From: a virus
Strand: one strand, 5' to 3'
DNA: 45,375 nt
IMG/VR virus record: IMGVR_UViG_3300002920_000062
Coordinates: 134,123-179,497 of that record
How positions within the stretch are numbered: the first letter of the stretch is position 1; every line of letters starts with the position of its first letter. The notes under the pieces were generated by a model, which saw only the letters and a program-made list of their open reading frames with translations, had not been told where the DNA came from and did not search any database. The position numbers were made by a program, and so were the translations under genes. Shown here one piece after another: positions 2,801 through 36,053 of this stretch.

Positions 2801-2998
2801 ATATCTTAATGCATTTTCATGAAATAAATGCGGTGTTATTATTATCAAATAACACCGAGAAAACATAAGAAAAGCCCAACTAGACAGACGACCTAAGAGA
2901 TATACAGGCCTGCTACGGTTGAAAACATATCTTGTATGATATATGTCCAAGTTATCTACTGATTTAATTGATAAATACATTATAATAGGGTAATAGAT

Positions 2999-3541
2999 AT
3001 GGCATCTGAAAAATTTAATGTATTGAATGGAATTTCAGTAGGAATACCGCCAGTAAATGTAGTGGACAATACAGGAAATGTAGTGTCAAACTTTAACAAT
3101 CTATCCGGCAATGTTTCCGCTAATCGTATATTTGCCAATCAATATCTTTATGCTAACGGAGCACCATTAATAGGCGGCTCTAACAACACTTTGTTGTTTA
3201 ATAATAATGGCACTATTGGCGGCTCAGTAAACTTATCTTACGATATAGCTAATAATACTTTAAGAGTATCTAATCTTGCTACCACAGGAGTTACTAATTT
3301 GGGTTTAGTAACTAATGTTAAAATTAGCGGCGGAAACCCTAATCAATTATTGTCTACTGACGGAAATAGTAATTTAGTCTGGAAAAATAACACTACCTTA
3401 TATAACACTTCAGAATTACCTCCAGCGTCTTTATCACTTGGTGTATTAGCTTTTGTAACAGATGGTCCAAGACCTAACAGACCAATATTCAGTGATGGTG
3501 TAAACTGGCGATTTGTCAGTGACGACACAATATTAATTTAA
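2999..3541 (+). CDS. Putative virion fibre/decoration protein
   Basis: N/G/S/T-rich; motif LGLVTNVKISGG..QLLSTDGNSNLVW is shared with the tail fibre at 43211; TAAATA at 2972. Confidence 0.6.
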   Translation: MASEKFNVLNGISVGIPPVNVVDNTGNVVSNFNNLSGNVSANRIFANQYLYANGAPLIGGSNNTLLFNNNGTIGGSVNLSYDIANNTLRVSNLATTGVTNLGLVTNVKISGGNPNQLLSTDGNSNLVWKNNTTLYNTSELPPASLSLGVLAFVTDGPRPNRPIFSDGVNWRFVSDDTILI

Positions 3542-3589
3542 ATTCTCAAAGTATTCTATATTTTTCTAAATATCATCAAAAGATATTTT

Positions 3590-4156
3590 ATGTTACAACT
3601 TTGGCAATTTTGGGAAAAAGCACTTGACGATGTTACAGTCGACCGTATCATTGAACTGGGCGAAGCCTTTGCCCCAGTTGATGCAGGAATAGGTCTTGGT
3701 GGAGTTCAAAGCCCAGGATATCGAATTAGCGAGATTCGTTGGATTTCTATAAATGATAGTAGGGCAGCATTCTTAAAAGAAATTTTGTGGTATTATGCCA
3801 CAGAAGCAAACAAGAACGCATTTGGTTTTGACATTAACTATTTACCTGATGTTCAATACACCAAATACAAAGCAACAAACAATGGTAAGTATGACTGGCA
3901 TCATGATGTATTTTGGATTAATACAACTACGCAACATAGGAAGTTATCTGTTGTAATTCAGCTTTCAGATCCAAGCGAATATGAGGGTGGCAACTTTGAA
4001 TTTCACCCAGAGTACGACCAACTTCCTGCTGATAGAATAAGAGCAAAAGGGACAGTTATTGTATTCCCTTCGTTTTTGCATCATAGAGTTACGCAAGTAA
4101 CATCAGGTATTCGCAAGTCAGCCGTATGTTGGTTTGAAGGTCCTAAGTTCAGGTAA
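3590..4156 (+). CDS. 2OG-Fe(II) oxygenase (prolyl-4-hydroxylase/PKHD-like)
   Basis: YDWHHD (HxD), RKLSVVIQLS, YEGGNF, FPSFLHHRVT, G-x-R-K-S motifs. Confidence 0.92.
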   Translation: MLQLWQFWEKALDDVTVDRIIELGEAFAPVDAGIGLGGVQSPGYRISEIRWISINDSRAAFLKEILWYYATEANKNAFGFDINYLPDVQYTKYKATNNGKYDWHHDVFWINTTTQHRKLSVVIQLSDPSEYEGGNFEFHPEYDQLPADRIRAKGTVIVFPSFLHHRVTQVTSGIRKSAVCWFEGPKFR

Positions 4157-7998: not shown

Positions 7999-8448
7999 AT
8001 GGAATGTAAATTTGCTTATAATGACTACATAGAGCGATTACGTTCTTGGATCATGTTAAGGGAATCTATACAAAATAAAGATACCCAAACCATATGTAAA
8101 GAAGTCAACAACTATTGGATAAATCTTAAGACAGAGCGTTATTATCTTCATCCAATTGACATGGAAGATTGGCCCACACCTTGGGAACTAATATATGATA
8201 ACATCTATTGCGGGTATGCCAAAGCTTTAGGAATAATCTATACATTACTGTTATCGGGAATTCGAGACGTTGACTTGGTTGAAATAATGTACGATAATAA
8301 TGAAAACATACCAGTAGTCTTAGTAGATAATGCAAAATATGTGCTTAATTTGCAAGACTATGAACCAGTAAATAGTTTCTCATCAAACTTTACTATCATT
8401 AAGAAATATAACATAGACTTACTAAAGCAAAAGGCAGGAATCACATGA
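7999..8448 (+). CDS. Hypothetical protein, possibly transglutaminase-like (BTLCP-like) fold
   Basis: WPTPWELI...YCGYAKALGIIYTL resembles the WxTP...C...AxAK pattern; stop overlaps nrdA start. Confidence 0.5.
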   Translation: MECKFAYNDYIERLRSWIMLRESIQNKDTQTICKEVNNYWINLKTERYYLHPIDMEDWPTPWELIYDNIYCGYAKALGIIYTLLLSGIRDVDLVEIMYDNNENIPVVLVDNAKYVLNLQDYEPVNSFSSNFTIIKKYNIDLLKQKAGIT

Positions 8449-10094
8449 TCAACATCATAAAGCGTTCGGGAAAAAAGGAAAGTTTATCATTAGAAAAGTG
8501 GCAGCAACAAATCAATAAAATATGCAAAGGGGTAGCAGATGTTAGTCAGTCTATGATTGAAATTAAAGCCCGCCCGCAATTTTACGATGGAATGACTACC
8601 CAAGAAATTGATGAAATCACACTACGAGCTATTGTCGACTTGATTGACGTTGAACAAAATCCTGATGTTGGTCATTCAAACTACCAGTATGTTGCAGGTA
8701 AGCAACGGTTGTCTATGCTTAGAAAAGCAGTATACGGGCAATATGAACCGTGGCCACTATATGATATTGTAAAGAAGAATGTTGAAAGAGGGTTATATAC
8801 TCCTGAATTATTAGAATGGTATACCAAAGAAGAGTGGGACAAGATGGAAGAAATCATTGACCACTCTAAAGATGAACTTTACTCGTATGCCGCCATCGAA
8901 CAGCTAATAGAGAAGTATCTTGTAAAGAATCGTGTCACAAAACAGGTATATGAAACTCCGCAAGTAAGGTACATTGTTGCTGCCGCAACAGCTTTTCATA
9001 TGGAAAACACTGCAAATAGGATAAAATATATTAAGGAATACTATAATGCAGCAAGTGACGGGCACTTTACCTTAGCTACTCCTGTATTAGCTGGTCTAGG
9101 CACTCCCACAAAACAATTTAGTAGTTGTGTACTTATTCGTGTTGATGACGATTTAGATTCAATTTTTGCTGCTGGGGAAATGATGGCAAAATATGCCAGT
9201 AAACGTGCCGGTATAGGTTTAGAAGTCGGCAGAGTTCGCCCTGTGGGTTCTCCTATTCGCGGAGGTGAAATTATGCACACTGGTCTTGTTCCCTTCTTAA
9301 AAAAGTGGTATGCTGACTTACGTTCATGTTCACAGGGAGGTATTAGAAATGCATCAGCGACGGTATTTTATCCTATCTGGCATCTTCAGTTTGAAGATTT
9401 AATTGTTCTCAAGAACAATCAGGGAACAGAGGAAACTAGAGTTCGCCACTTAGACTATGGTATAATGCTCTCAGCATTTTTCCTACGTAGATTCAAGAAC
9501 AAACAAGATATTACTTTCTTTGACCCCAATGAAGTTCCTGACCTATATGAAGCCTTCTACAGTGACAGTGATAAGTTCGAAGAACTGTACATCAAGTATG
9601 AGAAACGCAAGGACATACGTAAGAAGGTAATGAGCGCAGATGATGTATTTCGTTACGGCATCTTCAAAGAAAGAACAGATACTGGTAGAATTTATCTAGC
9701 TTTTACTGATAACATTATGAAGCAGGGTCCGTTTGATCCAAAATATCACCCAATATACCAGAGCAATTTGTGCTGTGTAACTGGCGAAACACAGGTAACT
9801 TTCCTTCATGAAAACGGAAAAATAGAACAAATGTCTGTTGCTAGTGCAGTAGAAAGATTTGAACTTGGCGGACTCAGTAACTCTAAAATCAAAAGTTTTA
9901 AAAATGGTAAAGTTTCTTGGGAAAGCGTTTCCGCTGCTATCAAGACAAAAACAGTCACGGAACTATACGAAATTGAGGACGAACAGGGTAATGTGTTAAG
10001 ATGTACTGGTGATCATCTAGTTTTTACTAAAAACAGAGGTTACGTAAGAGCAGATGAATTAGTAGAAACTGACGAGTTATGTGTTGAAATTTGA
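8445..10094 (+). CDS. nrdA: Ribonucleotide reductase class Ia alpha, N-terminal fragment fused to split-intein IntN
   Basis: ATP-cone start MINIIKRSG; TPVLAG, FSSCVLI, SCSQGGIRNA; ends QSNLC followed by intein block A CVTGETQV. Confidence 0.95.
   Translation: MINIIKRSGKKESLSLEKWQQQINKICKGVADVSQSMIEIKARPQFYDGMTTQEIDEITLRAIVDLIDVEQNPDVGHSNYQYVAGKQRLSMLRKAVYGQYEPWPLYDIVKKNVERGLYTPELLEWYTKEEWDKMEEIIDHSKDELYSYAAIEQLIEKYLVKNRVTKQVYETPQVRYIVAAATAFHMENTANRIKYIKEYYNAASDGHFTLATPVLAGLGTPTKQFSSCVLIRVDDDLDSIFAAGEMMAKYASKRAGIGLEVGRVRPVGSPIRGGEIMHTGLVPFLKKWYADLRSCSQGGIRNASATVFYPIWHLQFEDLIVLKNNQGTEETRVRHLDYGIMLSAFFLRRFKNKQDITFFDPNEVPDLYEAFYSDSDKFEELYIKYEKRKDIRKKVMSADDVFRYGIFKERTDTGRIYLAFTDNIMKQGPFDPKYHPIYQSNLCCVTGETQVTFLHENGKIEQMSVASAVERFELGGLSNSKIKSFKNGKVSWESVSAAIKTKTVTELYEIEDEQGNVLRCTGDHLVFTKNRGYVRADELVETDELCVEI
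9774..10091 (+). mobile_element. Split intein N-fragment (106 aa) in NrdA
   Basis: CVTGETQV (block A), LRCTGDHLVF (block B TxxH), GYVRADEL, then stop. Confidence 0.93.
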
Positions 10095-10310
10095 TTACCA
10101 ATCATAAACGACAAGCAAACTTAACAGAAGTTGGGAGCACTTGAGACTATTAGGAAATGAAACTATTAGTAAGGCAAGAAAAGGAAAATACTAGCAGTTG
10201 AACATTCTAGTAGGCATCGGTGGTACAACAACGGTGTACAAAATGTAAGAGTTACTAACGAAGCAGAATTTTGTAAAAATAACACAGAATATGTATTAGG
10301 AAGAACATAA
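10095..10310 (+). pseudogene. Relic of NUMOD-type homing endonuclease between the nrdA halves
   Basis: Fragments ETISKARKGK and HRWYNNGVQNVRV...EYVLGRT* (stop 10308-10310); no intact ORF. Confidence 0.6.
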
Positions 10311-10312
10311 GT

Positions 10313-11398
10313 ATGATTAAAATTAAAAAAATTGAAGTAGAGCCCACAGATGTATATGACTTATCTGTCCCTGAAACAGAGTGTTTCTTTGCTGATAACA
10401 TATTAGTTCATAATTGTGAAATTCTTCTCCCCACCAAGCCTTTCAAACGCCTTGAAGATCCTACTGGGAGAATTTCTCTCTGTACACTGGGAAGTATAAA
10501 CTGGGGAGCATTTAGAAACCCAGAAGATATGCGTAGAGCATGTCGTATTCTATTGCGCAGTTTGAATAACATTCTTGACTATCAGGATTACTTGAGCATA
10601 CAAAGCAAGTTGTCCAATGAGGAAATTAGACCAATAGGAATTGGGGTTACTAACTTGGCGTATTGGCATGCCAAGCGAGGCCTCAAATATGGGGAAAAAG
10701 AAGCCCTTCAAGAAGTCAACACTTGGGCAGAACACCAGACTTACTATCTGATGGAAGCTAATGTAGAACTTGCTAAGGAACGTGGCAAGTGTTTGGACAG
10801 TGACAAGACTCGGTATGGTCAGGGTAAGTTTTGTTGGGAACTTCGCAGTCAGGGTGTTGATGAGTTGATAAACTTTGAGACTGAACTTGATTGGGAAACT
10901 CTTAGAAAAGAAATGCTTACATACGGGGTAAGAAACGCTACTGTCGGTGCTATTGCCCCTGTTGAATCAAGTAGCGTTGTTATAAATTCTACAAACGGTA
11001 TTGCTATTCCCATGAGCTTGATAAGCGTTAAGGAAAGTAAAGCTGGCTCCTTCGTTCAAGTTGTTCCAGATTATCATATTCCTAGAATTAGAAAAAACTA
11101 CCAGTTACTATGGGAAACTGACTGTGTAGATTATCTGAAGACCGCCGCAGTACTGGCAGCTTGGATGGATCAGTCAATTAGTACCGACACTTTCTATAAC
11201 CCTGCCCACTTTCCTGATAGAAAGGTTCCTACTACACTTGTTGCTAAAAACATAATGTTGGCACACAAGTGGGGACTTAAGACAATATATTACTCCTTGC
11301 TCAATAAAAAAGGAGCTAAACTTGAAGAAGACGAAATTTCTGAATTACCAACAGACGACATTGAAGATGATTCAGATTGCGAGGCATGTAAGCTTTAA
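10313..11398 (+). CDS. nrdA: Split-intein IntC (34 aa) fused to NrdA C-terminal fragment
   Basis: MIKIKK...VYDLSV...FFADNILVHN then CEILLP; CTLGSINW, APVESSS, DQSIS, KTIYY, terminal CEACKL. Confidence 0.95.
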   Translation: MIKIKKIEVEPTDVYDLSVPETECFFADNILVHNCEILLPTKPFKRLEDPTGRISLCTLGSINWGAFRNPEDMRRACRILLRSLNNILDYQDYLSIQSKLSNEEIRPIGIGVTNLAYWHAKRGLKYGEKEALQEVNTWAEHQTYYLMEANVELAKERGKCLDSDKTRYGQGKFCWELRSQGVDELINFETELDWETLRKEMLTYGVRNATVGAIAPVESSSVVINSTNGIAIPMSLISVKESKAGSFVQVVPDYHIPRIRKNYQLLWETDCVDYLKTAAVLAAWMDQSISTDTFYNPAHFPDRKVPTTLVAKNIMLAHKWGLKTIYYSLLNKKGAKLEEDEISELPTDDIEDDSDCEACKL

Positions 11399-19179: not shown

Positions 19180-20176
19180 AGAAGAAATTCTGAGTAAGTT
19201 CCTGGATGGTTCTATCAGCCTAAGTAAGATTGACTATAGGTTCTTCAATAATTTGCAAATTACCTTCAACAAGGGCACGGGAATTACTACCAACCAAGCA
19301 TCATTATTTGACAGGTTAATCAATAAGTATGCCAGACAACTAAGAAAGAATGGTATTGACGTAGAGAAGTCGCTACAACTTTCTTGGAACGGTAAAGTTA
19401 TACCTAGCAATCGTGAGTTTACCTCAGCAAGAATTACAGTTGAAAATAATGACACTCTTGTGTTGAAAGTTCCCTTCAATAACAAGTTCATTCGTGCGTT
19501 TAACCAAAATCCCGGGTGCATTAAATACGACAAGGAGCGACGAGCATACACAGCTACATTCACTACACATAATTTAAAAAAAATGCTGGATATAGTTAAT
19601 CAACACTTTACTTGTTTGGATTTGTGTGATGAGATCAGCAACATTATAACTGACTTGAAGCAATATGAAGCTGCCTACCACGACCCGACACTTGTTGAAA
19701 TCAACGGTAGATTAGTTATTGTAGCCGTCAATCAAGCCCTTGGTGTACATTTAGAGAACATCATTATTGAAAAGACACCAGAATGTTTTGAGAAGTTGTT
19801 GGACTATGGCATTACTATTGACAAGTCAGTCTGGGGTAACGATGAGAAACTAAAGTTTGCTGGTAGCAGAGTATATGAGCTTAACAACTCTAACCTTAAG
19901 GAAGTTGTAGACTATTTAGATGATTTGGGATATGATGGATATGTAATACCAAATTTATCCAGTAGAATGAAAATTTCTGCTGCTTTGGTAAACCAATTTG
20001 AAGTTTCTAACTCTAATCTAGTCTCATTCAGTGCTACTTGGCAAAAGGCTACTGATAGCACTAAGCTTGTGATATTTACACCCAACGAGAGGATATCACA
20101 AAGCTTTGTAGAACAATCTAGAGCCTTCAAGAAAATTATAATTATGAAAGATTCAAGTAGAGTTGAAGTAAAATGA
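19169..20176 (+). CDS. Hypothetical protein
   Basis: 335-aa ORF overlapping both neighbours. Confidence 0.7.
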   Translation: MQYKEEILSKFLDGSISLSKIDYRFFNNLQITFNKGTGITTNQASLFDRLINKYARQLRKNGIDVEKSLQLSWNGKVIPSNREFTSARITVENNDTLVLKVPFNNKFIRAFNQNPGCIKYDKERRAYTATFTTHNLKKMLDIVNQHFTCLDLCDEISNIITDLKQYEAAYHDPTLVEINGRLVIVAVNQALGVHLENIIIEKTPECFEKLLDYGITIDKSVWGNDEKLKFAGSRVYELNNSNLKEVVDYLDDLGYDGYVIPNLSSRMKISAALVNQFEVSNSNLVSFSATWQKATDSTKLVIFTPNERISQSFVEQSRAFKKIIIMKDSSRVEVK

Positions 20177-21210
20177 AAACAGCAAAAATTGAAATAAAGG
20201 ACGAAGTCAATGTAAAGATTCATGATTTAGAGGCCCAAGACAGGCGTGCTCTAATGCGCAAGTTCGAGTTTGAGGTGCCGGGCGCAAGGTTCCTTCCTGC
20301 CGTCAAGATGGGCAGATGGAACGGCAAAACAAGTTTTTTCTCACTTGCGGGCAGCACCTATGTAAACTTACTAGAAGATGTCATAACATACCTTTATGAC
20401 AACAATTATGATATTGAACTTACTGACAATCGTATAGTTAGAGAAAAATTAGAGTTTGACAAGGTAGAAGCGAACAGTTTTGCTCATGTAATGTGGCCCG
20501 AAAATCACCCAGCTGCTGGTCAGCCCATCGTGCTGCGAGATTATCAAGTTGAACTTATAAACAACTTCTTAGAAAACCCGCAATCAATTCAAGAAGCAGC
20601 CACTGGTGCAGGAAAGACCATCGTTACCGCAGCACTATCTTCTAGAGTTGAGAAGTATGGCAGAAGCCTGGTAATTGTGCCAAACAAGAGTTTAGTTACA
20701 CAGACCGAAGCCGATTATATCAACATGGGTCTGGATGTTGGTGTATATTTCGGGGAGAGAAAAGAAGTTGGTAGAACACATACTATATGCACTTGGCAAA
20801 GTATCAACGCACTACTAAATCACCTATCTAAGAAAAGCGAGTTTGAAGAACATCAGACAGTCGTGGATGCGTTCTTTGATAATATAGCTTGTGTCATTGT
20901 TGATGAATGCTTTCATGGTGATAGTAAGGTACTAACGCCAAATGGATATATTCCTATAAAAAATCTAAAAGTCGGGGACAAAGTAATTAATTACTCAGAA
21001 AATAACCACTCTTTCAAAGAGGATATAATTGTTAAAAAACATGTTAATTTAACAGTGTCTTCTACTGAAAAAATGTATGAGTTAGAATTTGATAATGGGA
21101 TTGTTATTAGGGTAACTGGAAATCATAAGTTTTTAACTAATTATGGCTGGTGCAGAGCAGACCAGCTAACGGAAAATCATGAGATTATTCATCAAGACAT
21201 AAATATATGA
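20173..21210 (+). CDS. uvsW: UvsW-like SF2 helicase N-terminal fragment fused to split-intein IntN
   Basis: LRDYQ, ATGAGKT, IVPNKSL, CVIVDE then intein CFHGDSKV. Confidence 0.92.
   Translation: MKTAKIEIKDEVNVKIHDLEAQDRRALMRKFEFEVPGARFLPAVKMGRWNGKTSFFSLAGSTYVNLLEDVITYLYDNNYDIELTDNRIVREKLEFDKVEANSFAHVMWPENHPAAGQPIVLRDYQVELINNFLENPQSIQEAATGAGKTIVTAALSSRVEKYGRSLVIVPNKSLVTQTEADYINMGLDVGVYFGERKEVGRTHTICTWQSINALLNHLSKKSEFEEHQTVVDAFFDNIACVIVDECFHGDSKVLTPNGYIPIKNLKVGDKVINYSENNHSFKEDIIVKKHVNLTVSSTEKMYELEFDNGIVIRVTGNHKFLTNYGWCRADQLTENHEIIHQDINI
20908..21207 (+). mobile_element. Split intein N-fragment (100 aa) in UvsW-like helicase
   Basis: CFHGDSKVLTPNG (block A), IKNLKVGDKV, IRVTGNHKFLT (block B), GWCRADQL, stop. 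Confidence 0.92.
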
Positions 21211-21229
21211 TGCAAAAGCAAGAGTATTT

Positions 21230-22143
21230 ATGAAAATAACTTATGAAACATGGAAAACGTTGTTAAATGAGCGGTTAGAATATTTCAATCAAACAACTAG
21301 AGTAATAGAATATAACAAACAAGAAATACGACTTTAACGATGGCACTAAATTAACCGTAACAGAATACAAAAAGTTTAAGAAAAGGTTAATGAATACTAA
21401 AACTACATTATGCATATAAAATATAGATGCTATTCTTTCTGGAAAGATAACTGTTAAACAAATTAAATCAAAATTATGTTCTATAGGAAGAAAGTCCTGT
21501 CAGAAATTACACAAAGAAACTATTAAGAAAAACCTTAATTCTGGTATCCCCTGGAATAAAGGAAAGCGAGGGTGTCAAATAGGATGGGCTCGAGGGTTGA
21601 CCAAAGATACAGACGCTAGGGTAAAAAACTTACCAAATTTGGTAAAAAAATGGCATGTTCGGTAAAAAACATAATGAGGAAACTAAAAAACTTCTTTCAG
21701 AAAAAATGAAGAAAAAAATATTAGAGGGAACATTTACACCTAATTCTAATAATAGAAATACACATTGGGAAGCAATGTTGGATAACATGAGATATCAGTC
21801 TAGTTGGGAAGCTTGGTACAATTACTTAAACTTGGGCGCAGAATACGAAACACTTAGGATTTCTTATGAATATAACGGTAGTAATAAAGTGTATATCGTA
21901 GATTTCGTGGACCATGAACAAAAACTAGTAATAGAAGTAAAACCCAAAGAACTTACGAATAATTCTCTTTTTGCTGCTAAGTGGAATGCTCTTGGTCAAT
22001 GGGCCAAAAATAATGGGTATTTACCTTTACTCGTTAATCAAACGTGGTTAGTTAGTAATACTACTAGCATTGACTATTTTAGGTTTGATAAAGGAACAGG
22101 TGATAAAATAAGGAATATATATGAAGTTAATAAAAAGAACTGA
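21230..22143 (+). pseudogene. Degenerate NUMOD3 / PD-(D/E)XK homing endonuclease between helicase halves
   Basis: ATG 21230, frameshift ~21335, in-frame TAA ~21417, PWNKGK..GLTKDTDARV, frameshift ~21630-21650, then MFGKKHNEETK...SSWE...YIVDF...VIEVKP. Confidence 0.8.
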
Positions 22144-22957
22144 GATTTCTAAGCCAAACGAAGTATACAATTTACACATCAAAAATGACCATAATTATAT
22201 TGTAGAAGGGGCAGTAGTTTCTAATTGTCACCAAGCTAAGGCCAATGTTCTAAAGGAGTTATTGACAGGCAAGCTTGCCAACGTACCAATTAGATGGGGA
22301 TTAACAGGTACTATACCAAAAGAATTGATGGATCAGGTATCATTACTAGTCTCACTTGGTCCAGTTATCAGCAAGCTTTCTGCTAATGAGCTACAAGAAA
22401 AGGGAGTCCTAGCAAAATGTGAAGTTAACATCATACAGCTTAAAGATGATAGGGAGTTTTCAAATTACCAGAGTGAGCTAAAGTTTTTATTGGAAAATGA
22501 AGACAGAATAAATGCTATTGTTGGTATGATAAACCAGATAGCACAAACAGGTAACACTCTTATATTGGTGGATAGAATTTCGGCAGGAAGAAACTTAGCG
22601 GCTAAATTACCAGACTCGGTGTTTATTAGCGGTAGTACTTCACTGACTGAACGGAAAGAAGAATATGATGAGGTTGCGACACAGGATAACAAAGTACTAA
22701 TTTGTACTTATGGAGTAGCAGCGGTAGGAATCAACATTCCACGTATTTTCAACCTAGTGTTAATTGAACCAGGCAAGAGTTTTGTAAGGGTTATTCAGTC
22801 AATTGGTAGAGGTATTCGCAAAGCAAAAGATAAGGATTTTGTTAACATCTACGATATCACAAGTAGCTGTAAGTTTTCTAGAAGACACCTTACTCAACGT
22901 AAGCAGTATTACAGAGAAGCAAATTATCCTTTTAAAGTTACAAAAGTGAGTTATTGA
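22121..22957 (+). CDS. uvsW: Split-intein IntC (35 aa) fused to UvsW-like helicase C-terminal fragment
   Basis: MKLIKR...VYNLHI...HNYIVEGAVVSN then CHQA; GLTGT (motif III), GINIPRI, QSIGRGIR (motif VI). Confidence 0.92.
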   Translation: MKLIKRTEISKPNEVYNLHIKNDHNYIVEGAVVSNCHQAKANVLKELLTGKLANVPIRWGLTGTIPKELMDQVSLLVSLGPVISKLSANELQEKGVLAKCEVNIIQLKDDREFSNYQSELKFLLENEDRINAIVGMINQIAQTGNTLILVDRISAGRNLAAKLPDSVFISGSTSLTERKEEYDEVATQDNKVLICTYGVAAVGINIPRIFNLVLIEPGKSFVRVIQSIGRGIRKAKDKDFVNIYDITSSCKFSRRHLTQRKQYYREANYPFKVTKVSY

Positions 22958-28287: not shown

Positions 28288-28395
28288 TACTTTTTCTTTT
28301 TGGATACTTTTTGATAATTCAGAAAAAGTATGATATTATAAAATCAAAAGGAGGTTCTTGCTACTTATAATATATCGTATGTAGTGAGGAATATA

Positions 28396-30021
28396 ATGGA
28401 TAAATGTGAATATTGTAAAGTAAATGATGTATTATTAAACAAGAAAGGTAAACCTTTAAGATATTGTTCTAAAAGTTGCCAACACTCACATACTATACAG
28501 AAGAGAAATCAGACAAATATCGCAAGATATGGCACAACTAACCCCATGATGTTAGATGAGGTTAAAGAAAAGCGTAAAAATACCAATATAGCCAGATATG
28601 GCACAGACAAGCCGTTTCTATTGCCTGAAATTCAAGAAAAATACAAAGCAACTTGCCGAATTAAATTTGGAGTAGATTTTCCGTCACAATCAGAAGGTAT
28701 AAGAATTAAGCAGAAAGAGGCGTGGGTTAAGTATAAGAACAACCATCCTCTTTCAGATAACCTTATACGAAAAAAACGAGAAACAACACTATTTGACAAA
28801 TTTGGTGTTAAGCACCCCATTCTACACCCTGAAATCAAGAAAAAAATTGAACAAACCAATTTAAAAATATACGGATGCCCAAATGCTGCATCTTCTAGTA
28901 TTGTCACAGAAAAAATAAGTCAAAAATTAAATTCTTCCGAGACAAAAGAAAAAATAATTCAAACCAACTTGGAACGATACGGAGTTCCTTACTACAATCA
29001 GAAAAATATAAAAGAAGCTCTTCTAATATTAGAAGATAGTAATAAGGCCACTGAGATTATCACTACTTTGGGCATGACAGGAGCAGCCCAATTCTTGAAC
29101 GTATCAATTGATACCATTAGAAAATATGTATTAATGCATGAAATTACTATTCAGAAACGTATTAGTGATTTTGAAATTCAAGTAGCTAATTTTTTAGCAG
29201 GCCTTCTACCAAATTCTCAAATTGTCAAGAATGACAGAACGTTGATAGGAAAAGAGTTGGATATTTATATACCTGACTATAATATAGCAATAGAATGTAA
29301 CGGGTTGTATTGGCACAGTGAGTTGAATGGTAAAACAAGCAATTACCATATAGAAAAAACCAAACAATGCAAAGAAAATAATGTTAGATTGTTACATATT
29401 TGGGAAAATGACTGGAATATTAAACAACCGATTGTAAAATCCAGACTTAGCTCTGTTTTAGGAAAAAATACAACGGTTTATGCAAGAAAATGTATGATTA
29501 AAGAGGTTAATACAAAAGATACTCAAGAATTTTTATCTAACAACCACCTTCAAGGATATTGTGCTTCTTCTGTAAAATTAGGATTATATGAAAATAATAA
29601 ATTGGTGAGTCTAATGACTTTTGGAAAAAGTAGATTCACACGCAAGTATGATTATGAACTTATCCGCTATTGTAATAAATTGGGAATCAATGTAGTAGGA
29701 GGTGCAAGCAAATTATTTGCATATTTCATCAAACAATACAGCCCTAAAAATGTAGTATCATATTCTTCTATAGATTTTAACACTGGCGAAATGTATTCTC
29801 ATTTGGGGTTTAAAAAAACCCATTCATCATGTCCGGCATATTATTATACTAAAAATTACTTAGTTCTAGAAAATCGCATCAAATATCAAAAGCACAAACT
29901 AAAAAAGATATTACCAATCTACGACGACAGCCTATCAGAATGGGATAATATGAAATTAAATGGGTATGATCGGATATGGGATTGTGGCAATGATGTTTGG
30001 TTATGGGAGTCTCTTTACTAG
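28396..30021 (+). CDS. Homing-endonuclease-like protein: Zn finger, K-x-T-N-x-x-RYG repeats, PD-(D/E)XK nuclease, GNAT-like C-terminus
   Basis: CEYC..YCSKSC; repeated TNIARYG; ELDIYIPDYNIAIECNGLYWH; IWENDW; GYDRIWDCG. Confidence 0.8.
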   Translation: MDKCEYCKVNDVLLNKKGKPLRYCSKSCQHSHTIQKRNQTNIARYGTTNPMMLDEVKEKRKNTNIARYGTDKPFLLPEIQEKYKATCRIKFGVDFPSQSEGIRIKQKEAWVKYKNNHPLSDNLIRKKRETTLFDKFGVKHPILHPEIKKKIEQTNLKIYGCPNAASSSIVTEKISQKLNSSETKEKIIQTNLERYGVPYYNQKNIKEALLILEDSNKATEIITTLGMTGAAQFLNVSIDTIRKYVLMHEITIQKRISDFEIQVANFLAGLLPNSQIVKNDRTLIGKELDIYIPDYNIAIECNGLYWHSELNGKTSNYHIEKTKQCKENNVRLLHIWENDWNIKQPIVKSRLSSVLGKNTTVYARKCMIKEVNTKDTQEFLSNNHLQGYCASSVKLGLYENNKLVSLMTFGKSRFTRKYDYELIRYCNKLGINVVGGASKLFAYFIKQYSPKNVVSYSSIDFNTGEMYSHLGFKKTHSSCPAYYYTKNYLVLENRIKYQKHKLKKILPIYDDSLSEWDNMKLNGYDRIWDCGNDVWLWESLY

Positions 30022-32359: not shown

Positions 32360-32974
32360 ATGGCAAAAATTACAGAATACACCCCAGAGATACAATCATT
32401 GTTTTTATCTATTATGTTAACCGTGCCTGAGTTATATACCAGGGTGGCTAACATATTTAATGTTGAGAATTTTTCTAAATCTGTTCGTCCGGCCGCAGAG
32501 TTCATAAAAGATTATGTAGAAAAATATTCTTTTGTTCCTACTATAGAAGTGGTAAACAAGATGACTTCGGTTAATCTTGAATGCCTTGATTTAGATACTG
32601 ATACCATAACTGATTTCTTTTTAGAAGAATTTGAGTCGTTCACTAAACGACAAGAGCTTGAAAGAGCTATTCTTAAAGCAGCCGATTTGCTTGAAAAGGG
32701 TGAGTTTGAACCAGTTGAGAAATTAGTCAAAGATGCGGTACAAATCTCATTAGTCAAGAACATGGGTACAGACTATTTTGCTGACCCTGAAGACCGCCTA
32801 AATAGATATTTCAACCAAGGTGGTCAGGTATCTACAGGCTGGCCACAGCTTGATAGAATCATGTATGGCGGTATGAGCAGAGGCGAACTAAACATCTTTG
32901 CTGGTAGCAGCGGATGCGTCACTGAGGATACCTTAGTTGAAGTCATTGAACTACCTGATCTTACCTTAGAGTAA
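32360..32974 (+). CDS. Replicative DnaB/gp41 helicase N-terminal fragment with 19-aa split-intein IntN
   Basis: STGWPQLDRIMYGGMSRGELNIFAGSSG, then CVTEDTLVEVIELPDLTLE*. Confidence 0.92.
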   Translation: MAKITEYTPEIQSLFLSIMLTVPELYTRVANIFNVENFSKSVRPAAEFIKDYVEKYSFVPTIEVVNKMTSVNLECLDLDTDTITDFFLEEFESFTKRQELERAILKAADLLEKGEFEPVEKLVKDAVQISLVKNMGTDYFADPEDRLNRYFNQGGQVSTGWPQLDRIMYGGMSRGELNIFAGSSGCVTEDTLVEVIELPDLTLE

Positions 32975-33017
32975 AATATCATATGTAGTATGATTATCTT
33001 AAAGAGGTTTAAAATAG

Positions 33018-34361
33018 ATGAATTATGTAAATGTAAGCAAAGAGTTAGAATATCTTAGACAATTTTACACTTTTGCAGAATTGGATAATTATGCAAAGGG
33101 CAATGATGCTAAAATAGTATCATTATATGAAAAAACCCAGCCAAAAAAAGTTCCGATAGGTAGTTTATACGGGAAAACTGAAAATTCTAACTTTGTAGTA
33201 AGTAGTCCTGACGGATGGGTGCAGGTAATTGACTGTATTCAAAAAATAAAGTCAGATATGTATAATGTAATTTTTAAAAACGGCACTCATATCAAAGCTA
33301 GCCATGATCACTTATTTCAGAAACCTGATCAGTCATGGCATTATGTCAGGGATCTTAATAAGGGTGATGTAATTTTAAGCGAATGGGGATATGAGGAGAT
33401 AGAGGAAATTTCTTCTTATCAAAAGAAAACTAAAGTATATGATTTGTCAGTTGGTCATAAAAATCATAGATATTATACTTCTGGAATTTGTAGTCATAAC
33501 ACGGGCAAAAGTTTAGTTATGATGAACTTGGCGTTAAATTGGTTAAGTCAGGGATTATCAGGGGTTTATATTACTCTTGAGCTTAGCGAAGAATTAACCT
33601 CGCTAAGAACTGACGCCATGATGACAGGCATGAGTACCAAAGACATACGAAAGAATATTGAAGATACTGCCTTGAAGGTTAGACTACAAAGAAAGAAAAT
33701 GGGCCAGTACCGAATTAAGGACTTGCCAGCGCAAAGTAATGTAAATGCCATCCGAGCATATATCAAAGAGCTACAAGTACAGACTGGTATCAAGATTGAC
33801 TTTGTTATGATTGACTATTTGGACTTGGTCATGCCGGTAAGTGTTAAGGTCAATCCCAATGACCAGTTTATTAAGGACAAATATGTTAGTGAAGAGTTGA
33901 GAAACTTAGCCAAAGAATTTGGTGTGTTGATGGTAACAGCAAGCCAGTTAAACAGAAGTGCAGTAGAAGAAATTGAATTTGATCACAGTCACATTGCGGG
34001 CGGCATCTCAAAGATAAATACAGCAGACTATGTTTTTGGTATATTTACTAGCAGAAGTATGAGAGAGCGGGGCAAATACCAAATTCAGTGTATGAAATCT
34101 CGTAGTTCAACTGGGGTTGGGCAGAAGATTGATTTAGATTATAATATAGAAACAATGCGTATTACGGATAGCGGTACAGAAGATACTAAGCAAGAACCCC
34201 AAACACCGTCAAGACTTATGGACCAAATAAGAAAACGCGAAATCATTGATCCAGAAACGGGTGAGATAACAGAAGAAGTGCCTAAAATAAGAGCAGATGT
34301 TAGAGGAACTAGTTTAAATAAATTGCTTCAGTCACTTAAAAAGGATCACGGTTTGAACTAG
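33018..34361 (+). CDS. Long split-intein IntC (161 aa) fused to DnaB/gp41 helicase C-terminal fragment
   Basis: AAAGAGG RBS; IKASHDHLF (block B), VYDLSV..HRYYTSGICSHN (blocks F/G), then TGKS, YITLELSE, IDYLDL, TASQLNR. Confidence 0.92.
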   Translation: MNYVNVSKELEYLRQFYTFAELDNYAKGNDAKIVSLYEKTQPKKVPIGSLYGKTENSNFVVSSPDGWVQVIDCIQKIKSDMYNVIFKNGTHIKASHDHLFQKPDQSWHYVRDLNKGDVILSEWGYEEIEEISSYQKKTKVYDLSVGHKNHRYYTSGICSHNTGKSLVMMNLALNWLSQGLSGVYITLELSEELTSLRTDAMMTGMSTKDIRKNIEDTALKVRLQRKKMGQYRIKDLPAQSNVNAIRAYIKELQVQTGIKIDFVMIDYLDLVMPVSVKVNPNDQFIKDKYVSEELRNLAKEFGVLMVTASQLNRSAVEEIEFDHSHIAGGISKINTADYVFGIFTSRSMRERGKYQIQCMKSRSSTGVGQKIDLDYNIETMRITDSGTEDTKQEPQTPSRLMDQIRKREIIDPETGEITEEVPKIRADVRGTSLNKLLQSLKKDHGLN

Positions 34362-36053
34362 ATGAATGAGTTAAAATCTATAATAACAAAATATTGCTAC
34401 AAAAAAAACGGGAGTGTAAATGGTCGGTGTAACAAGAAAATATGGTGGCAAAGTAGAGGCTTAGAAACATACTATCAGCAGATACTTGAAGTTACTGATT
34501 TTTTACCCGAAAACACTAAAATTAATATTCGTTTTTATCATATACTAAATGATATTTGGAATATACCAAAATGTGCTTATGTCAGTTGCGACAAAAATGT
34601 TGCATGGCACAAATCAACCAATCGTTATTCATTATATTGTTCTCGTAGATGCACCGCTCTAGCGAATATTAAAACAGGAAAAGAAAATTGCTTTTCAAAA
34701 CGCAAAACCAAAGAAAAAATAAAACAAACCCTTGTACGAAAATATGGTGTAGACAATTTTTCCAAGTCTCATGAATTTAGTGATAAAATCAAGAATTACT
34801 ATTCTTGTTTGTCCCAAGATGATAAAAAGTACATACAAAGCAAAAGAGAAAATACCAACTTGCAAAAATATGGTTATACTACTCCTTTACTAAGCAAAGA
34901 TGTTCAGGAAAAAATACAAAACACACTTCTGGAACGATACGGTGTAGATTCACCTTCAAAAAGCAAGATTATACAGGCTAAAAAAGCCAACACCAATCTA
35001 CAGAGATATGGTGTGCCCAACTATAATCAGCGCTATTTAGGAGAAGAAACTATCAATAATTTGTGTGACCGAGAATGGTTAGAAAAGAAAATGGCCCAAT
35101 CTTCCATCAAAGAAATAGCCACAGAACTAAATATTTCTTATTCGGCGTTGTGTTCTTATATTAGGAAAGCTGGGATAATACTAACTAACTATTCATATTT
35201 TGAAACTGAAGTTTATAATTATATCAAAGAAATACGCCCTGACATTGAGGTAACAAGAAGAGACAAGACCTTATTAAAAACATCTAAACAAGAAATTGAT
35301 TTGTATATTCCAGAACTAAAGTTAGCAATTGAATGTAACGGTATTTATTGGCACGGTGAAAATAAGGGAAAACACAAATACTACCACCTAGGTAAAACTG
35401 ACACCTGTTTACAAAATTCAGTTAGATTAATTCATATTTTTGAAAATGAATGGGCAGGTAAACAGGATATAGTGAAAAATCGCTTATCAGTTTTATTGGG
35501 AGAAAAAACAAAAATATACGGAAGAAACACTGTAGTTAAAAAAGTGACCAAAACTGAAGAGCGTCAGTTTCTCGATGCCAACCATCTGCAAGGGTATGTT
35601 CCTTCAGTAGTATGTTACGGTTTATATTACAATGATATATTAATCTCGTTAATTAGTTTTGGAAAGTCAAGGTTTAGTAAAAATATAGAATGGGAGCTTC
35701 TTCGTTACGCAGTCAAAGATACATATTGTGTTCTAGGAGGGGCCAAAAAACTTTTCTACTCGTTCATTAATGATTTTTCACCAAAATCAATTGTTTCCTA
35801 CTCTGATAGACGCTGGTTTACAGGTGAATTATACAAAGCCCTTGGTTTTATTTTTTCACATTATTCAAGTCCTAATTATTACTACGTTGAGCAGAACGGG
35901 GAATTATCTTCTAGGCTACGTTATCAAAAGCACAAACTAAGTAAAATTTTACCTAATTACAATCCAGAATTAACAGAATGGGAAAACATGCTATGTCATG
36001 GATATGACAGAATTTGGGATTGTGGCAATTCAGTATGGTTTTATTTCAAATGA
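34362..36053 (+). CDS. Homing-endonuclease-like protein, paralogue of 28396-30021
   Basis: YCSRRC; TLLERYG/TNLQRYG repeats; EIDLYIPELKLAIECNGIYWH; GYDRIWDCG. Confidence 0.8.
   Translation: MNELKSIITKYCYKKNGSVNGRCNKKIWWQSRGLETYYQQILEVTDFLPENTKINIRFYHILNDIWNIPKCAYVSCDKNVAWHKSTNRYSLYCSRRCTALANIKTGKENCFSKRKTKEKIKQTLVRKYGVDNFSKSHEFSDKIKNYYSCLSQDDKKYIQSKRENTNLQKYGYTTPLLSKDVQEKIQNTLLERYGVDSPSKSKIIQAKKANTNLQRYGVPNYNQRYLGEETINNLCDREWLEKKMAQSSIKEIATELNISYSALCSYIRKAGIILTNYSYFETEVYNYIKEIRPDIEVTRRDKTLLKTSKQEIDLYIPELKLAIECNGIYWHGENKGKHKYYHLGKTDTCLQNSVRLIHIFENEWAGKQDIVKNRLSVLLGEKTKIYGRNTVVKKVTKTEERQFLDANHLQGYVPSVVCYGLYYNDILISLISFGKSRFSKNIEWELLRYAVKDTYCVLGGAKKLFYSFINDFSPKSIVSYSDRRWFTGELYKALGFIFSHYSSPNYYYVEQNGELSSRLRYQKHKLSKILPNYNPELTEWENMLCHGYDRIWDCGNSVWFYFK

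What the first reader, a model, noticed from the sequence alone, without database searches (positions are those of the whole stretch)
32915..33503. Atypically split intein with a 19-residue IntN inside the Walker A motif of the replicative helicase
Seen: the upstream helicase ORF ends FAGSSG-CVTEDTLVEVIELPDLTLE* (block A only, 6 of 19 residues acidic). 43 nt later, in another frame and with its own AAAGAGG RBS, a second ORF carries blocks B, F and G (ASHDH...VYDLSV...CSHN) followed by TGKS. Splicing would restore GSSGTGKS, with Thr as +1 nucleophile. IntC also starts with ~40 residues (MNYVNVSKELEYLRQF...) that are not part of a canonical Hint fold. Established: most natural split inteins have a long IntN and short IntC; the reverse arrangement is rare (e.g. 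AceL-TerL, VidaL types) and valued because the IntN can be made synthetically. Inference: a functional, possibly new atypical split intein.
Basis: partly seen in the sequence, partly recalled or inferred. Interest (0 to 1): 0.88.

Follow-up and report, generated by a model that had tools for sequence, protein, structure and literature searches.

The report
VidaL-type split intein in phage helicase
A large uncultured phage encodes its replicative helicase as two genes that must be stitched together by a split intein with a very short (16-19 residue) first half; it is a new relative of the known VidaL intein, carrying an extra three-helix piece and the scar of a lost homing endonuclease gene.

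Summary
ORF-N (32360-32974) ends FAGSSG|CVTEDTLVEVIELPDLTLE*. After 43 nt, in another frame, ORF-C (33018-34361) carries intein blocks B, F and G and ends CSHN|TGKS. Intein-free homologues read ELNIFAGGSG|SGKSLVM, which fixes both splice junctions. The split is not an assembly artefact: at least 29 independent N-halves end in 16-29-residue IntN tails, and about 37 C-halves start like this one. The intein belongs to the family of VidaL (PDB 6vgv): profile E = 2e-19, Foldseek TM 0.86, the same split point after strand β2 and apparently the same P-loop site. It is therefore a new member of a known kind, not a new kind. Two features stand out. First, IntC residues 4-39 form a three-helix insertion that VidaL lacks. 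All complete split members of this subfamily have it, and it is predicted to touch IntN. Second, the 43-nt spacer is the last remnant of a free-standing endonuclease-like gene. That gene is whole in relatives (about 360 aa) and half-deleted in a 94%-identical relative. Catalytic residues are invariant and dN/dS is 0.16-0.30. A co-fold scores 0.90 (best control 0.01). Trans-splicing itself is untested, and raw reads could not be checked.

The parts
32360..32914 (+). N-extein: N-terminal 185 aa of the DnaB/gp41-like replicative helicase, ending ELNIFAGSSG (first half of Walker A)
   Evidence: it is collinear with intein-free helicases up to ...FAGGSG. dN/dS against L086 is 0.066.
32915..32971 (+). 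IntN, 19 aa: a 16-aa conserved core CVTEDTLVEVIELPDL (32915-32962; strands β1-β2, net charge -5) plus a 3-aa variable tail TLE
   Evidence: Searches give the family consensus CVTxDTLVEVIELPxI, with tails of 0-13 aa. In the co-fold, residues -3 to 16 lie in the interface.
32972..33017 (+). TAA stop plus the 43-nt spacer. This is the relic of the 3' end of a deleted free-standing endonuclease-like gene and carries the RBS AAAGAGG (33001-33007) for IntC
   Evidence: Over its whole length it aligns to the last ~54 nt of the truncated 129-aa ORF in L086 and to the end of the 363-aa ORF in L001. After TAA, the ORF-N frame reads ...KRFKIDELCKCK, which matches the tail of that ORF. No terminator or stable RNA structure was found.
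33018..33137 (+). N-terminal extension of IntC (residues 1-40): a three-helix insertion (helices 4-13, 19-26, 30-39) that is not part of the Hint fold
   Evidence: AF2 models. VidaL lacks it. Conserved residues are Y12, L13, F16, Y17, Y25 and L36. Residues 16-17, 21-22, 24-25, 36 and 39-40 touch the IntN chain in the co-fold, a contact run that continues to residue 50 in the Hint core.
33138..33500 (+). Hint core of IntC (residues 41-161): strand QPKKVPIGSL, SPDGW, block B ASHDH (S95, H98), block F VYDLSV, block G CSHN (Asn161)
   Evidence: Pfam PF14890. PDB VidaL 3e-6 with the single sequence and 2e-19 with the profile. Foldseek TM 0.86 to 6vgv. Invariant columns are listed.
33501..34361 (+). 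C-extein: Thr+1 and the rest of the helicase (TGKSLVMM..., the DnaB_C ATPase domain), 286 aa plus stop
   Evidence: Pfam DnaB_C 6.9e-15. Viral-contig homologues match from residue 162 onward. dN/dS is 0.051.
34362..36053 (+). Free-standing homing endonuclease gene (563 aa) abutting the end of the helicase gene. It is of the type that lies between the intein halves in other relatives
   Evidence: phrog_3339 'homing endonuclease' 1.2e-117 and Pfam DUF7487. The same family lies between the halves in L003, L103 and L105-L111.

Best explanation
This is a naturally split class-1 intein of the VidaL type, split after strand β2 (the 'S1' site), inside the Walker A loop of the phage's DnaB/gp41-like replicative helicase. 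The two genes are probably co-transcribed and are translated separately, the second from its own RBS. The acidic 16-residue IntN core is predicted to dock as strands β1-β2 between two strands of IntC (KVPI and FVVS) and against a conserved aromatic patch on a three-helix extension at the N-terminus of IntC. The reconstituted Hint domain would then use Cys1, block-B Ser-x-x-His, Asn161 and Thr+1 to excise itself and join ...AGSSG to TGKS..., giving a 471-aa helicase with an intact P-loop. Shown here: the anatomy, the homology, the conservation and the purifying selection. Inferred: the docking geometry (models only) and the splicing itself. The gene was once 'fractured' by a free-standing endonuclease-like gene inserted at the split point. 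That gene has been deleted in this phage, and the deletion left a 43-nt scar that supplies the RBS and created the IntN stop codon.
For: The junctions are exact against intein-free alleles (ELNIFAGGSG|SGKSLVM), and the spliced length of 471 aa fits. Homology to VidaL: phmmer 3e-6, family profile 2.1e-19, and Foldseek top hit 6vgv with TM 0.86 and rmsd 2.6. The VidaL crystal construct ends ...SH-A-SGK, which fits the same insertion site. The catalytic columns S95, D97, H98, D142, H160 and N161 are invariant, C158 is invariant among the 30 split IntCs and nearly so among all 44, and Cys1 is invariant in all N-halves. The split recurs in independent assemblies: 29 of the 120 best N-half homologues end in 16-29-aa IntN tails, and about 37 C-halves start with the same extension. 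Several loci were read in full. dN/dS against the close relative L086 is 0.29 for IntN, 0.30 for the extension and 0.157 for the IntC core, compared with 0.05-0.07 for the exteins. AF2 model confidence is pLDDT 89.1 for a natural fused relative and 87.8 for the window's IntC. Co-fold of the 45-aa N-tail with the 169-aa IntC: ipSAE 0.90, best of 3 controls 0.01. That mark was reached by 58 of 80 solved complexes and 2 of 110 mismatched pairs. The runs agree in at least 80% of contacts and the partner's pLDDT is at least 59. Because split-intein complexes of this kind are solved (6vgv, 6dsl), this pass may reflect likeness rather than independent evidence. Origin of the spacer. The split gene is the only DnaB_C gene in the 179-kb record.
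Against: There is no experimental evidence of splicing. The virus record is only about 52% complete by CheckV, so a second, intact helicase elsewhere cannot be excluded. dN/dS of IntN and of the extension (about 0.3) rests on few codons (19 and 40). Thr+1 is the minority state in the family, where Ser is commoner. The docking role of the extension comes only from structure prediction.
Confidence: 0.85

Rival explanations
1. Assembly or sequencing artefact: the intein is really contiguous, and the stop and frame change are errors.
For: Natural contiguous relatives exist (P0008, P0019, P0039 and others). One relative contig (L074) does show a probable frameshift error in the P-loop.
Against: Fusing the ORFs would need at least two changes: loss of TAA plus a frame shift, with stops in all three frames and a TAG directly before the ATG. 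A 94%-identical relative from another sample is also split, with a gene remnant between the halves. Dozens of other independent contigs are split at the same residue. The spacer is homologous to the 3' end of the intervening gene, which an error would not produce.
Confidence: 0.03
2. Decaying locus: the split intein no longer splices, and the helicase is a pseudogene or is replaced by a host or second phage helicase.
For: The endonuclease-like gene has already been lost, which is the late stage of the homing cycle. The record is about half a genome, so a second helicase cannot be excluded. dN/dS of IntN and the extension is higher than that of the exteins.
Against: Both ORFs are intact, there is a good RBS, and all catalytic residues are kept. 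The exteins show dN/dS of 0.05-0.07 and the intein core 0.157 against L086. Other lineages have the same endonuclease-less arrangement (L087/L095, L117 and L166).
Confidence: 0.07
3. The two halves associate through the intein pieces but act as a non-covalent two-subunit helicase without splicing.
For: The co-fold predicts tight association. Some split proteins do work non-covalently.
Against: The break lies inside Walker A (GSSG|TGKS), so an unspliced complex would carry 180 foreign residues in the P-loop. Cys1, Asn161, Thr/Ser+1 and the block-B His are invariant across the family, which association alone does not require.
Confidence: 0.03

Closest known systems
VidaL split intein (PDB 6vgv/6vgw; Burton et al. 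2020 PNAS, cited in PMC13014065; 16-aa IntN)
   Same: Class-1 Hint fold with Cys1. It is naturally split directly after β2 (the S1 site) with a 16-residue IntN core. It shares the block F/G signature NHRYY..G..SHN. The C-extein SGK in the crystal construct points to the same P-loop site of a phage helicase. It is the best sequence and structure match.
   Different: Identity is only about 20-30%. VidaL goes straight from IntN to the strand that aligns with TQPKKVPIGSL and lacks the three-helix extension. The window's +1 residue is Thr, not Ser. The environmental relatives that look most like VidaL (T4 gp41-type, L136/L153/L166) have basic IntN tails (CVHPDTEVKVRFRKKV), whereas this one is strongly acidic. 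My recollection that VidaL's host is a 'T4-like helicase' could not be checked, because the paper is not held.
Fractured genes with split inteins and a free-standing homing endonuclease (Dassa et al. 2009, PMC2677866), including the endonuclease-less gp41-7 locus
   Same: An essential phage DNA-metabolism gene is broken at an intein, with both halves adjacent on one strand. In relatives an endonuclease-type ORF lies between them. This window has lost it, as gp41-7 has. A primase gene lies upstream, as at the gp41-8 locus.
   Different: The gp41-1 to gp41-9 inteins are canonically split (a long IntN and an IntC of about 35-40 aa) and sit at other sites of the helicase. The gp41-1 type occurs as a second intein at SQLNR|S in P0025, P0039 and P0046. 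Here the break is after β2, inside the P-loop.
PolB16 OarG (15/168 aa), AceL TerL (25 aa) and GOS TerL (37 aa) atypical split inteins (PMC10189870, PMC13014065)
   Same: All are natural split inteins with a short IntN and a long IntC. PolB16 is also split at S1 and has an IntC of similar size.
   Different: Their host genes differ (PolB, terminase). The TerL inteins are split at S2, after helix α1. PolB16 uses Ser1/Ser+1. None appears among the sequence hits except the TerL-derived consensus CatC, which is weak (3.6e-5).

Membership tests
Class-1 intein (Hint domain) | Horseshoe Hint fold | tested here: met
   AF2 pLDDT is 89.1 and 87.8. There are 64 Foldseek PDB hits at E<=1e-3, and nearly all of those listed are inteins, the rest being intein-like BIL (Hint) domains. 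The top hit is 6vgv with TM 0.86.
Class-1 intein (Hint domain) | Catalytic set: Cys/Ser1, block-B T/S-x-x-H, block-F Asp, terminal His-Asn, and a +1 Cys/Ser/Thr | tested here: met
   Cys1 at 32915, S95-H-D-H98, VYD142LSV, H160-N161 and Thr+1. Apart from the +1 residue, these columns are invariant across 44 relatives and 24 N-halves. The +1 residue is Ser or Thr in every homologue listed.
Class-1 intein (Hint domain) | In-frame insertion whose removal restores a conserved host motif | tested here: met
   Intein-free alleles read AGGSG|SGKS at exactly this point.
Class-1 intein (Hint domain) | Protein splicing activity | not testable with these tools
   This needs expression or a peptide assay.
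VidaL-type (S1) atypically split intein | Two separately encoded halves with the break directly after β2 and an IntN of about 15-20 aa | tested here: met
   The ORFs were read. β2 is IVEVIEL in the model, followed by the break. IntN is 19 aa with a 16-aa core. The S1 definition comes from PMC13014065.
VidaL-type (S1) atypically split intein | Sequence homology to VidaL | tested here: met
   E = 3e-6 for the single sequence and 2.1e-19 for the family profile.
VidaL-type (S1) atypically split intein | Same host gene and insertion point as VidaL (allelic) | tested here: inconclusive
   The 6vgv construct ends SH(A)SGK, which matches HN|SGKS of this family. VidaL's native N-extein and host gene could not be read, because the paper is not held.
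Fractured gene (Dassa 2009) | Free-standing endonuclease gene between the two intein halves | tested here: not met
   The window has only a 43-nt relic of that gene. Relatives have ORFs of 355-618 aa there. The window is a derived, endonuclease-less form, like gp41-7.

The most novel reading that the evidence does not exclude
The three-helix extension is a docking module specific to the split state. Its conserved aromatic patch (F16, Y17, Y25, L36) would clamp the very short acidic IntN and compensate for the small β1-β2 interface. It would have been gained together with the endonuclease cassette at the split point. It would then be a natural, transferable affinity clamp for ultra-short IntN tags. 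The family would also show split and fused inteins interconverting repeatedly: split with endonuclease, then endonuclease-less split, then re-fused.
Probability: 0.3. Interest if true: 0.65.

Novelty: new member of a known kind. Interest (0 to 1): 0.5.

Why it matters
Split inteins whose first half is short enough to synthesise are sought-after tools for protein semisynthesis and live-cell labelling, and only a handful have been characterised (VidaL, PolB16, AceL/GOS TerL). This locus and its many relatives offer a diverged VidaL homologue with a strongly acidic 16-residue IntN. The charge is opposite to the basic IntN tails of the VidaL-like T4-type relatives found here, so the pairs may be orthogonal. 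It also has an extra helical module predicted to contact IntN, which could be tested as an affinity element. For evolution, the set of relatives shows stages of one history at one site. There is an endonuclease-type gene between the halves, a half-deleted copy in a 94%-identical phage, a 43-nt scar here, and an in-frame re-fusion of the intein in another phage.

Tried and rejected
Literature: Burton 2020, Stevens 2018 and Bachmann & Mootz 2015 are not held, and a search for 'T4Lh' found nothing relevant. VidaL's host gene is therefore inferred only from the extein residues in 6vgv. The 363/365-aa ORF between the halves in L001 and L004, and its 129-aa remnant in L086, gave no significant Pfam, PHROG or PDB hit. 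Atlas look-alikes are phage DUF559/DUF7487/NUMOD3 proteins at 0.91-0.94, which is a lead only, so I call it 'endonuclease-like', not a proven Vsr-type enzyme. MAFFT misplaced the large gap between the window and L086; a local alignment resolved it. My first motif test for the extension missed W-L-x-x-F-Y variants (L105-L111); these do carry the extension. No terminator, promoter excess or stable RNA structure was found in the spacer (z = 0.73), so I dropped the idea of a regulatory hairpin like those Dassa 2009 reported upstream of endonuclease ORFs. The direction of change between fused L175/P0008 and split L174 cannot be decided from the two sequences, so only L104 is counted as a clear re-fusion. 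blastn against deposited phages found only the ATPase core in Pseudomonas jumbo phages at about 67% identity, so no cultured relative is available.

Full report
**1. Observation**

ORF-N (32360..32974, 204 aa) ends ...ELNIFAGSSG-CVTEDTLVEVIELPDLTLE*. The Cys codon is at 32915 and the TAA stop at 32972-32974.

After a 43-nt spacer, ORF-C starts at ATG 33018 in another frame. AAAGAGG lies at 33001-33007, and an in-frame TAG lies directly before the ATG. ORF-C (447 aa) reads MNYVNVSKELEYLRQF... then ASHDH, VYDLSV and CSHN, followed by TGKSLVMM.

IntN has 6 acidic and no basic residues. All three frames carry stops across the spacer. Pfam finds Intein_splicing and DnaB_C in ORF-C.

**2. Junctions**

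A scan of IMG/VR with ORF-C returned about 600 stretches. Nearly all of the best 80 match only from residue 162 onward. They are uninterrupted helicases of 468-496 aa reading ELNIFAGGSG|SGKSLVM.

The window's exteins join to ELNIFAGSSG+TGKSLVM and give a 471-aa helicase.

**3. The split is real and recurrent**

- Among the 120 best homologues of ORF-N, 29 end in IntN tails of 16-29 aa with the consensus CVTxDTLVEVIELPxI.
- Among 53 homologues of IntC, about 37 are C-halves of 405-473 aa starting with the same N-terminal sequence. About 15 are contiguous helicase-intein fusions.
- Loci read in full show an N-half, an intervening ORF and a C-half (L001/L094, L003, L004, L100-L111 and L174). The gaps are 1069-1763 nt and hold ORFs of 355-618 aa.
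- Endonuclease-less versions like the window occur in other lineages: L087/L095 (overlapping ORFs), L117 (31 nt) and L166 (56 nt).

An artefact would nevertheless need at least two errors. It would also not explain the homology of the spacer described next.

**4. The spacer is a scar**

The closest relative is L086, a Logan assembly from another run, with an N-half 94% identical to the window's. It has the same layout, including the downstream endonuclease gene. Between its halves it carries a 129-aa, 5'-truncated remnant of the roughly 363-aa ORF that is whole in L001 and L004.

The window's stop codon and whole spacer (32972-33017) align to the last ~54 nt of that remnant. After TAA, the ORF-N frame still reads ...KRFKIDELCKCK, against ...KNKRFKIDELYKCK* in L086.

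A deletion therefore removed the intervening gene, created the present stop codon and the TLE tail, and kept the RBS.

The intervening ORF has no Pfam, PHROG or PDB match. Atlas look-alikes are phage DUF559/DUF7487/NUMOD3 proteins, so it is endonuclease-like but not proven. In other relatives (L003, L103 and L105-L111) the gene between the halves belongs to phrog_3339/DUF7487. In the window that family sits directly after the helicase gene (34362-36053) and again at 28384-30021.

**5. Identity of the intein**

- The best solved relative is VidaL (6vgv): 3e-6 with the window's IntC, 1.4e-8 with a contiguous relative and 2.1e-19 with the family profile.
- An AF2 model of a natural fused relative (P0008:178-370, pLDDT 89.1) has 6vgv as its top Foldseek hit (E = 3e-10, TM 0.86, rmsd 2.6, 20% identity). 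Other inteins follow.
- The VidaL crystal construct ends ...NHRYYGDGIVSH-A-SGK. The extein residues SGK fit the same P-loop site, HN|SGKS.
- According to PMC13014065, natural atypical splits fall at S1, after β2 (VidaL 16 aa, PolB16 15 aa), or at S2 (AceL TerL 25 aa, GOS TerL 37 aa). In the model the break follows β2, so this is an S1 split.

It is thus a diverged member of the VidaL kind, not a new kind.

**6. The extension**

IntC residues 4-39 form three helices (4-13, 19-26 and 30-39) in the model of IntC alone (pLDDT 87.8). The same three helices appear between β2 and β3 in the fused relative.

VidaL lacks the extension: its residue 21 aligns with TQPKK. All complete split members of this subfamily have it. 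Minimal contiguous members lack it, for example P0039, which reads ...ELPD-TQPKTVPIGSL, and P0044-P0053.

Conserved positions are Y12, L13, F16, Y17, Y25 and L36.

**7. Co-fold**

The last 45 aa of ORF-N were co-folded with IntC+8 aa, each supplied with its family alignment. The result was ipSAE 0.90, with 0.01 as the best of 3 controls. That mark was reached by 58 of 80 solved complexes and 2 of 110 mismatched pairs. The runs agree in at least 80% of contacts, and the partner's pLDDT is at least 59.

- IntN residues -3 to 16 are in the interface; the TLE tail mostly is not.
- IntN pairs with IntC 44-47 (KVPI) and 59-62 (FVVS), and lies near block B (92-99).
- Extension residues 16-17, 21-22, 24-25, 36 and 39-43 also touch the IntN chain.

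Similar complexes are already solved (6vgv, 6dsl), so this pass shows likeness and is not independent proof of binding.

**8. Selection and mobility**

| Region | dN/dS, window vs L086 |
|---|---|
| N-extein | 0.066 |
| IntN | 0.29 |
| Extension | 0.30 |
| IntC core | 0.157 |
| C-extein | 0.051 |

Against L001, the intein core is more conserved (pN 0.099) than the exteins (pN 0.19-0.24). This suggests that the intein moved between phages after the helicases diverged.

L104 is a contiguous intein whose IntC side is 358/359 identical to that of split L004. Its N side is about 85% identical. It lacks L004 positions 2860-4065, which hold the IntN tail, the intervening gene and the first 22 codons of IntC. 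This is an in-frame re-fusion with a recombination breakpoint at the split site. P0008/L175 against L174 shows a similar pair, but the direction of change is ambiguous.

**9. Wider family**

307 viral-contig stretches encode relatives. Two further subfamilies were seen:

- L118-L128: split inteins that carry a shorter version of the extension and are inserted two residues upstream (AGG|C...HN|SGSGKS).
- T4 gp41-type helicases (LAG|C...HN|TGVGKS): these have 16-19-aa basic IntN tails (CVHPDTEVKVRFRKKV) and no extension. They look most like VidaL.

Short-IntN split inteins in phage helicase P-loops are therefore common in metagenomes. Only one member has been characterised.

**10. Mechanism and verdict**

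The most likely reading (0.85) is functional trans-splicing, as set out under Best explanation. The split gene is the only DnaB_C gene in the 179-kb record, though that record is about 52% complete. The spacer has no terminator or structured RNA, which is consistent with co-transcription of the two halves.

Rival readings are an assembly artefact (0.03), a decayed locus (0.07) and non-covalent complementation without splicing (0.03).

Novelty: a new member of a known kind, with a subfamily-specific helical extension and a documented endonuclease-loss scar. Interest is moderate. It is a good candidate for the split-intein toolbox and a clean evolutionary series, but not a surprise to specialists.

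Noticed in passing
window 8445-11398: Ribonucleotide reductase large subunit (NrdA) is encoded as two ORFs (8445..10094 and 10313..11398). Intein_splicing hits lie at the break (about 9894-10414). The 218-nt spacer holds no whole endonuclease gene. This looks like a canonically split intein.
   Followed up: partly
window 20173-22957: A third split intein. Intein hits lie at about 20953-21258 (end of ORF 20173..21210) and 22112-22225 (start of ORF 22121..22957), with a 162-aa ORF (21655..22143) between them.
   Followed up: no
G000:C1:130642-130947 (about 3.2 kb upstream of the window): A fourth intein hit in the same phage, inside an uninterrupted 982-aa frame, so apparently a contiguous intein.
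   Followed up: no
window 28384-30021 and 34362-36053: Two copies of the same free-standing homing endonuclease family (phrog_3339, E = 1e-127 and 1e-117; DUF7487). The second abuts the stop codon of the helicase gene. It might promote co-conversion of the neighbouring intein now that the intein's own endonuclease-like gene is gone. This is speculation.
   Followed up: partly
L104:1707-3611: Contiguous helicase-intein ORF (634 aa) that looks like a re-fused split intein. It lacks the IntN tail, the intervening gene and the first two helices of the extension. It is 99.7% identical to split L004 on the IntC side but about 85% on the N side, so it is a mosaic with a breakpoint at the split site.
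   Followed up: yes
L118-L128 (e.g. L118:2700-4980): A related split intein subfamily (about 38% identity) inserted two residues upstream in the same P-loop (AGG|C...HN|SGSGKS). IntN tails are 21-31 aa, and a gene of about 1.7 kb lies between the halves.
   Followed up: partly
L136, L153, L166, L170: T4 gp41-type helicases with S1-split P-loop inteins whose 16-19-aa IntN is basic (CVHPDTEVKVRFRKKV). They have no helical extension and resemble VidaL most closely. L166 has only 56 nt between the halves.
   Followed up: partly
P0025, P0039, P0046 (proteins): Some helicases of this clade carry a second intein of the gp41-1 type at SQLNR|S (C...LFYANDILTHN|S), so one helicase gene can hold two inteins.
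   Followed up: no
L074:4428-5888: An intein-free helicase that is broken by a frame change exactly in the P-loop (IFAGG* then ...GSGKSLVMM in another frame). This is probably a sequencing error in that contig.
   Followed up: partly
window 33138-33500 vs L001:4121-4486: The intein core is more conserved between the window and L001 (pN 0.099) than the flanking helicase exteins (pN 0.19-0.24). This suggests recent horizontal movement of the intein between phages.
   Followed up: partly
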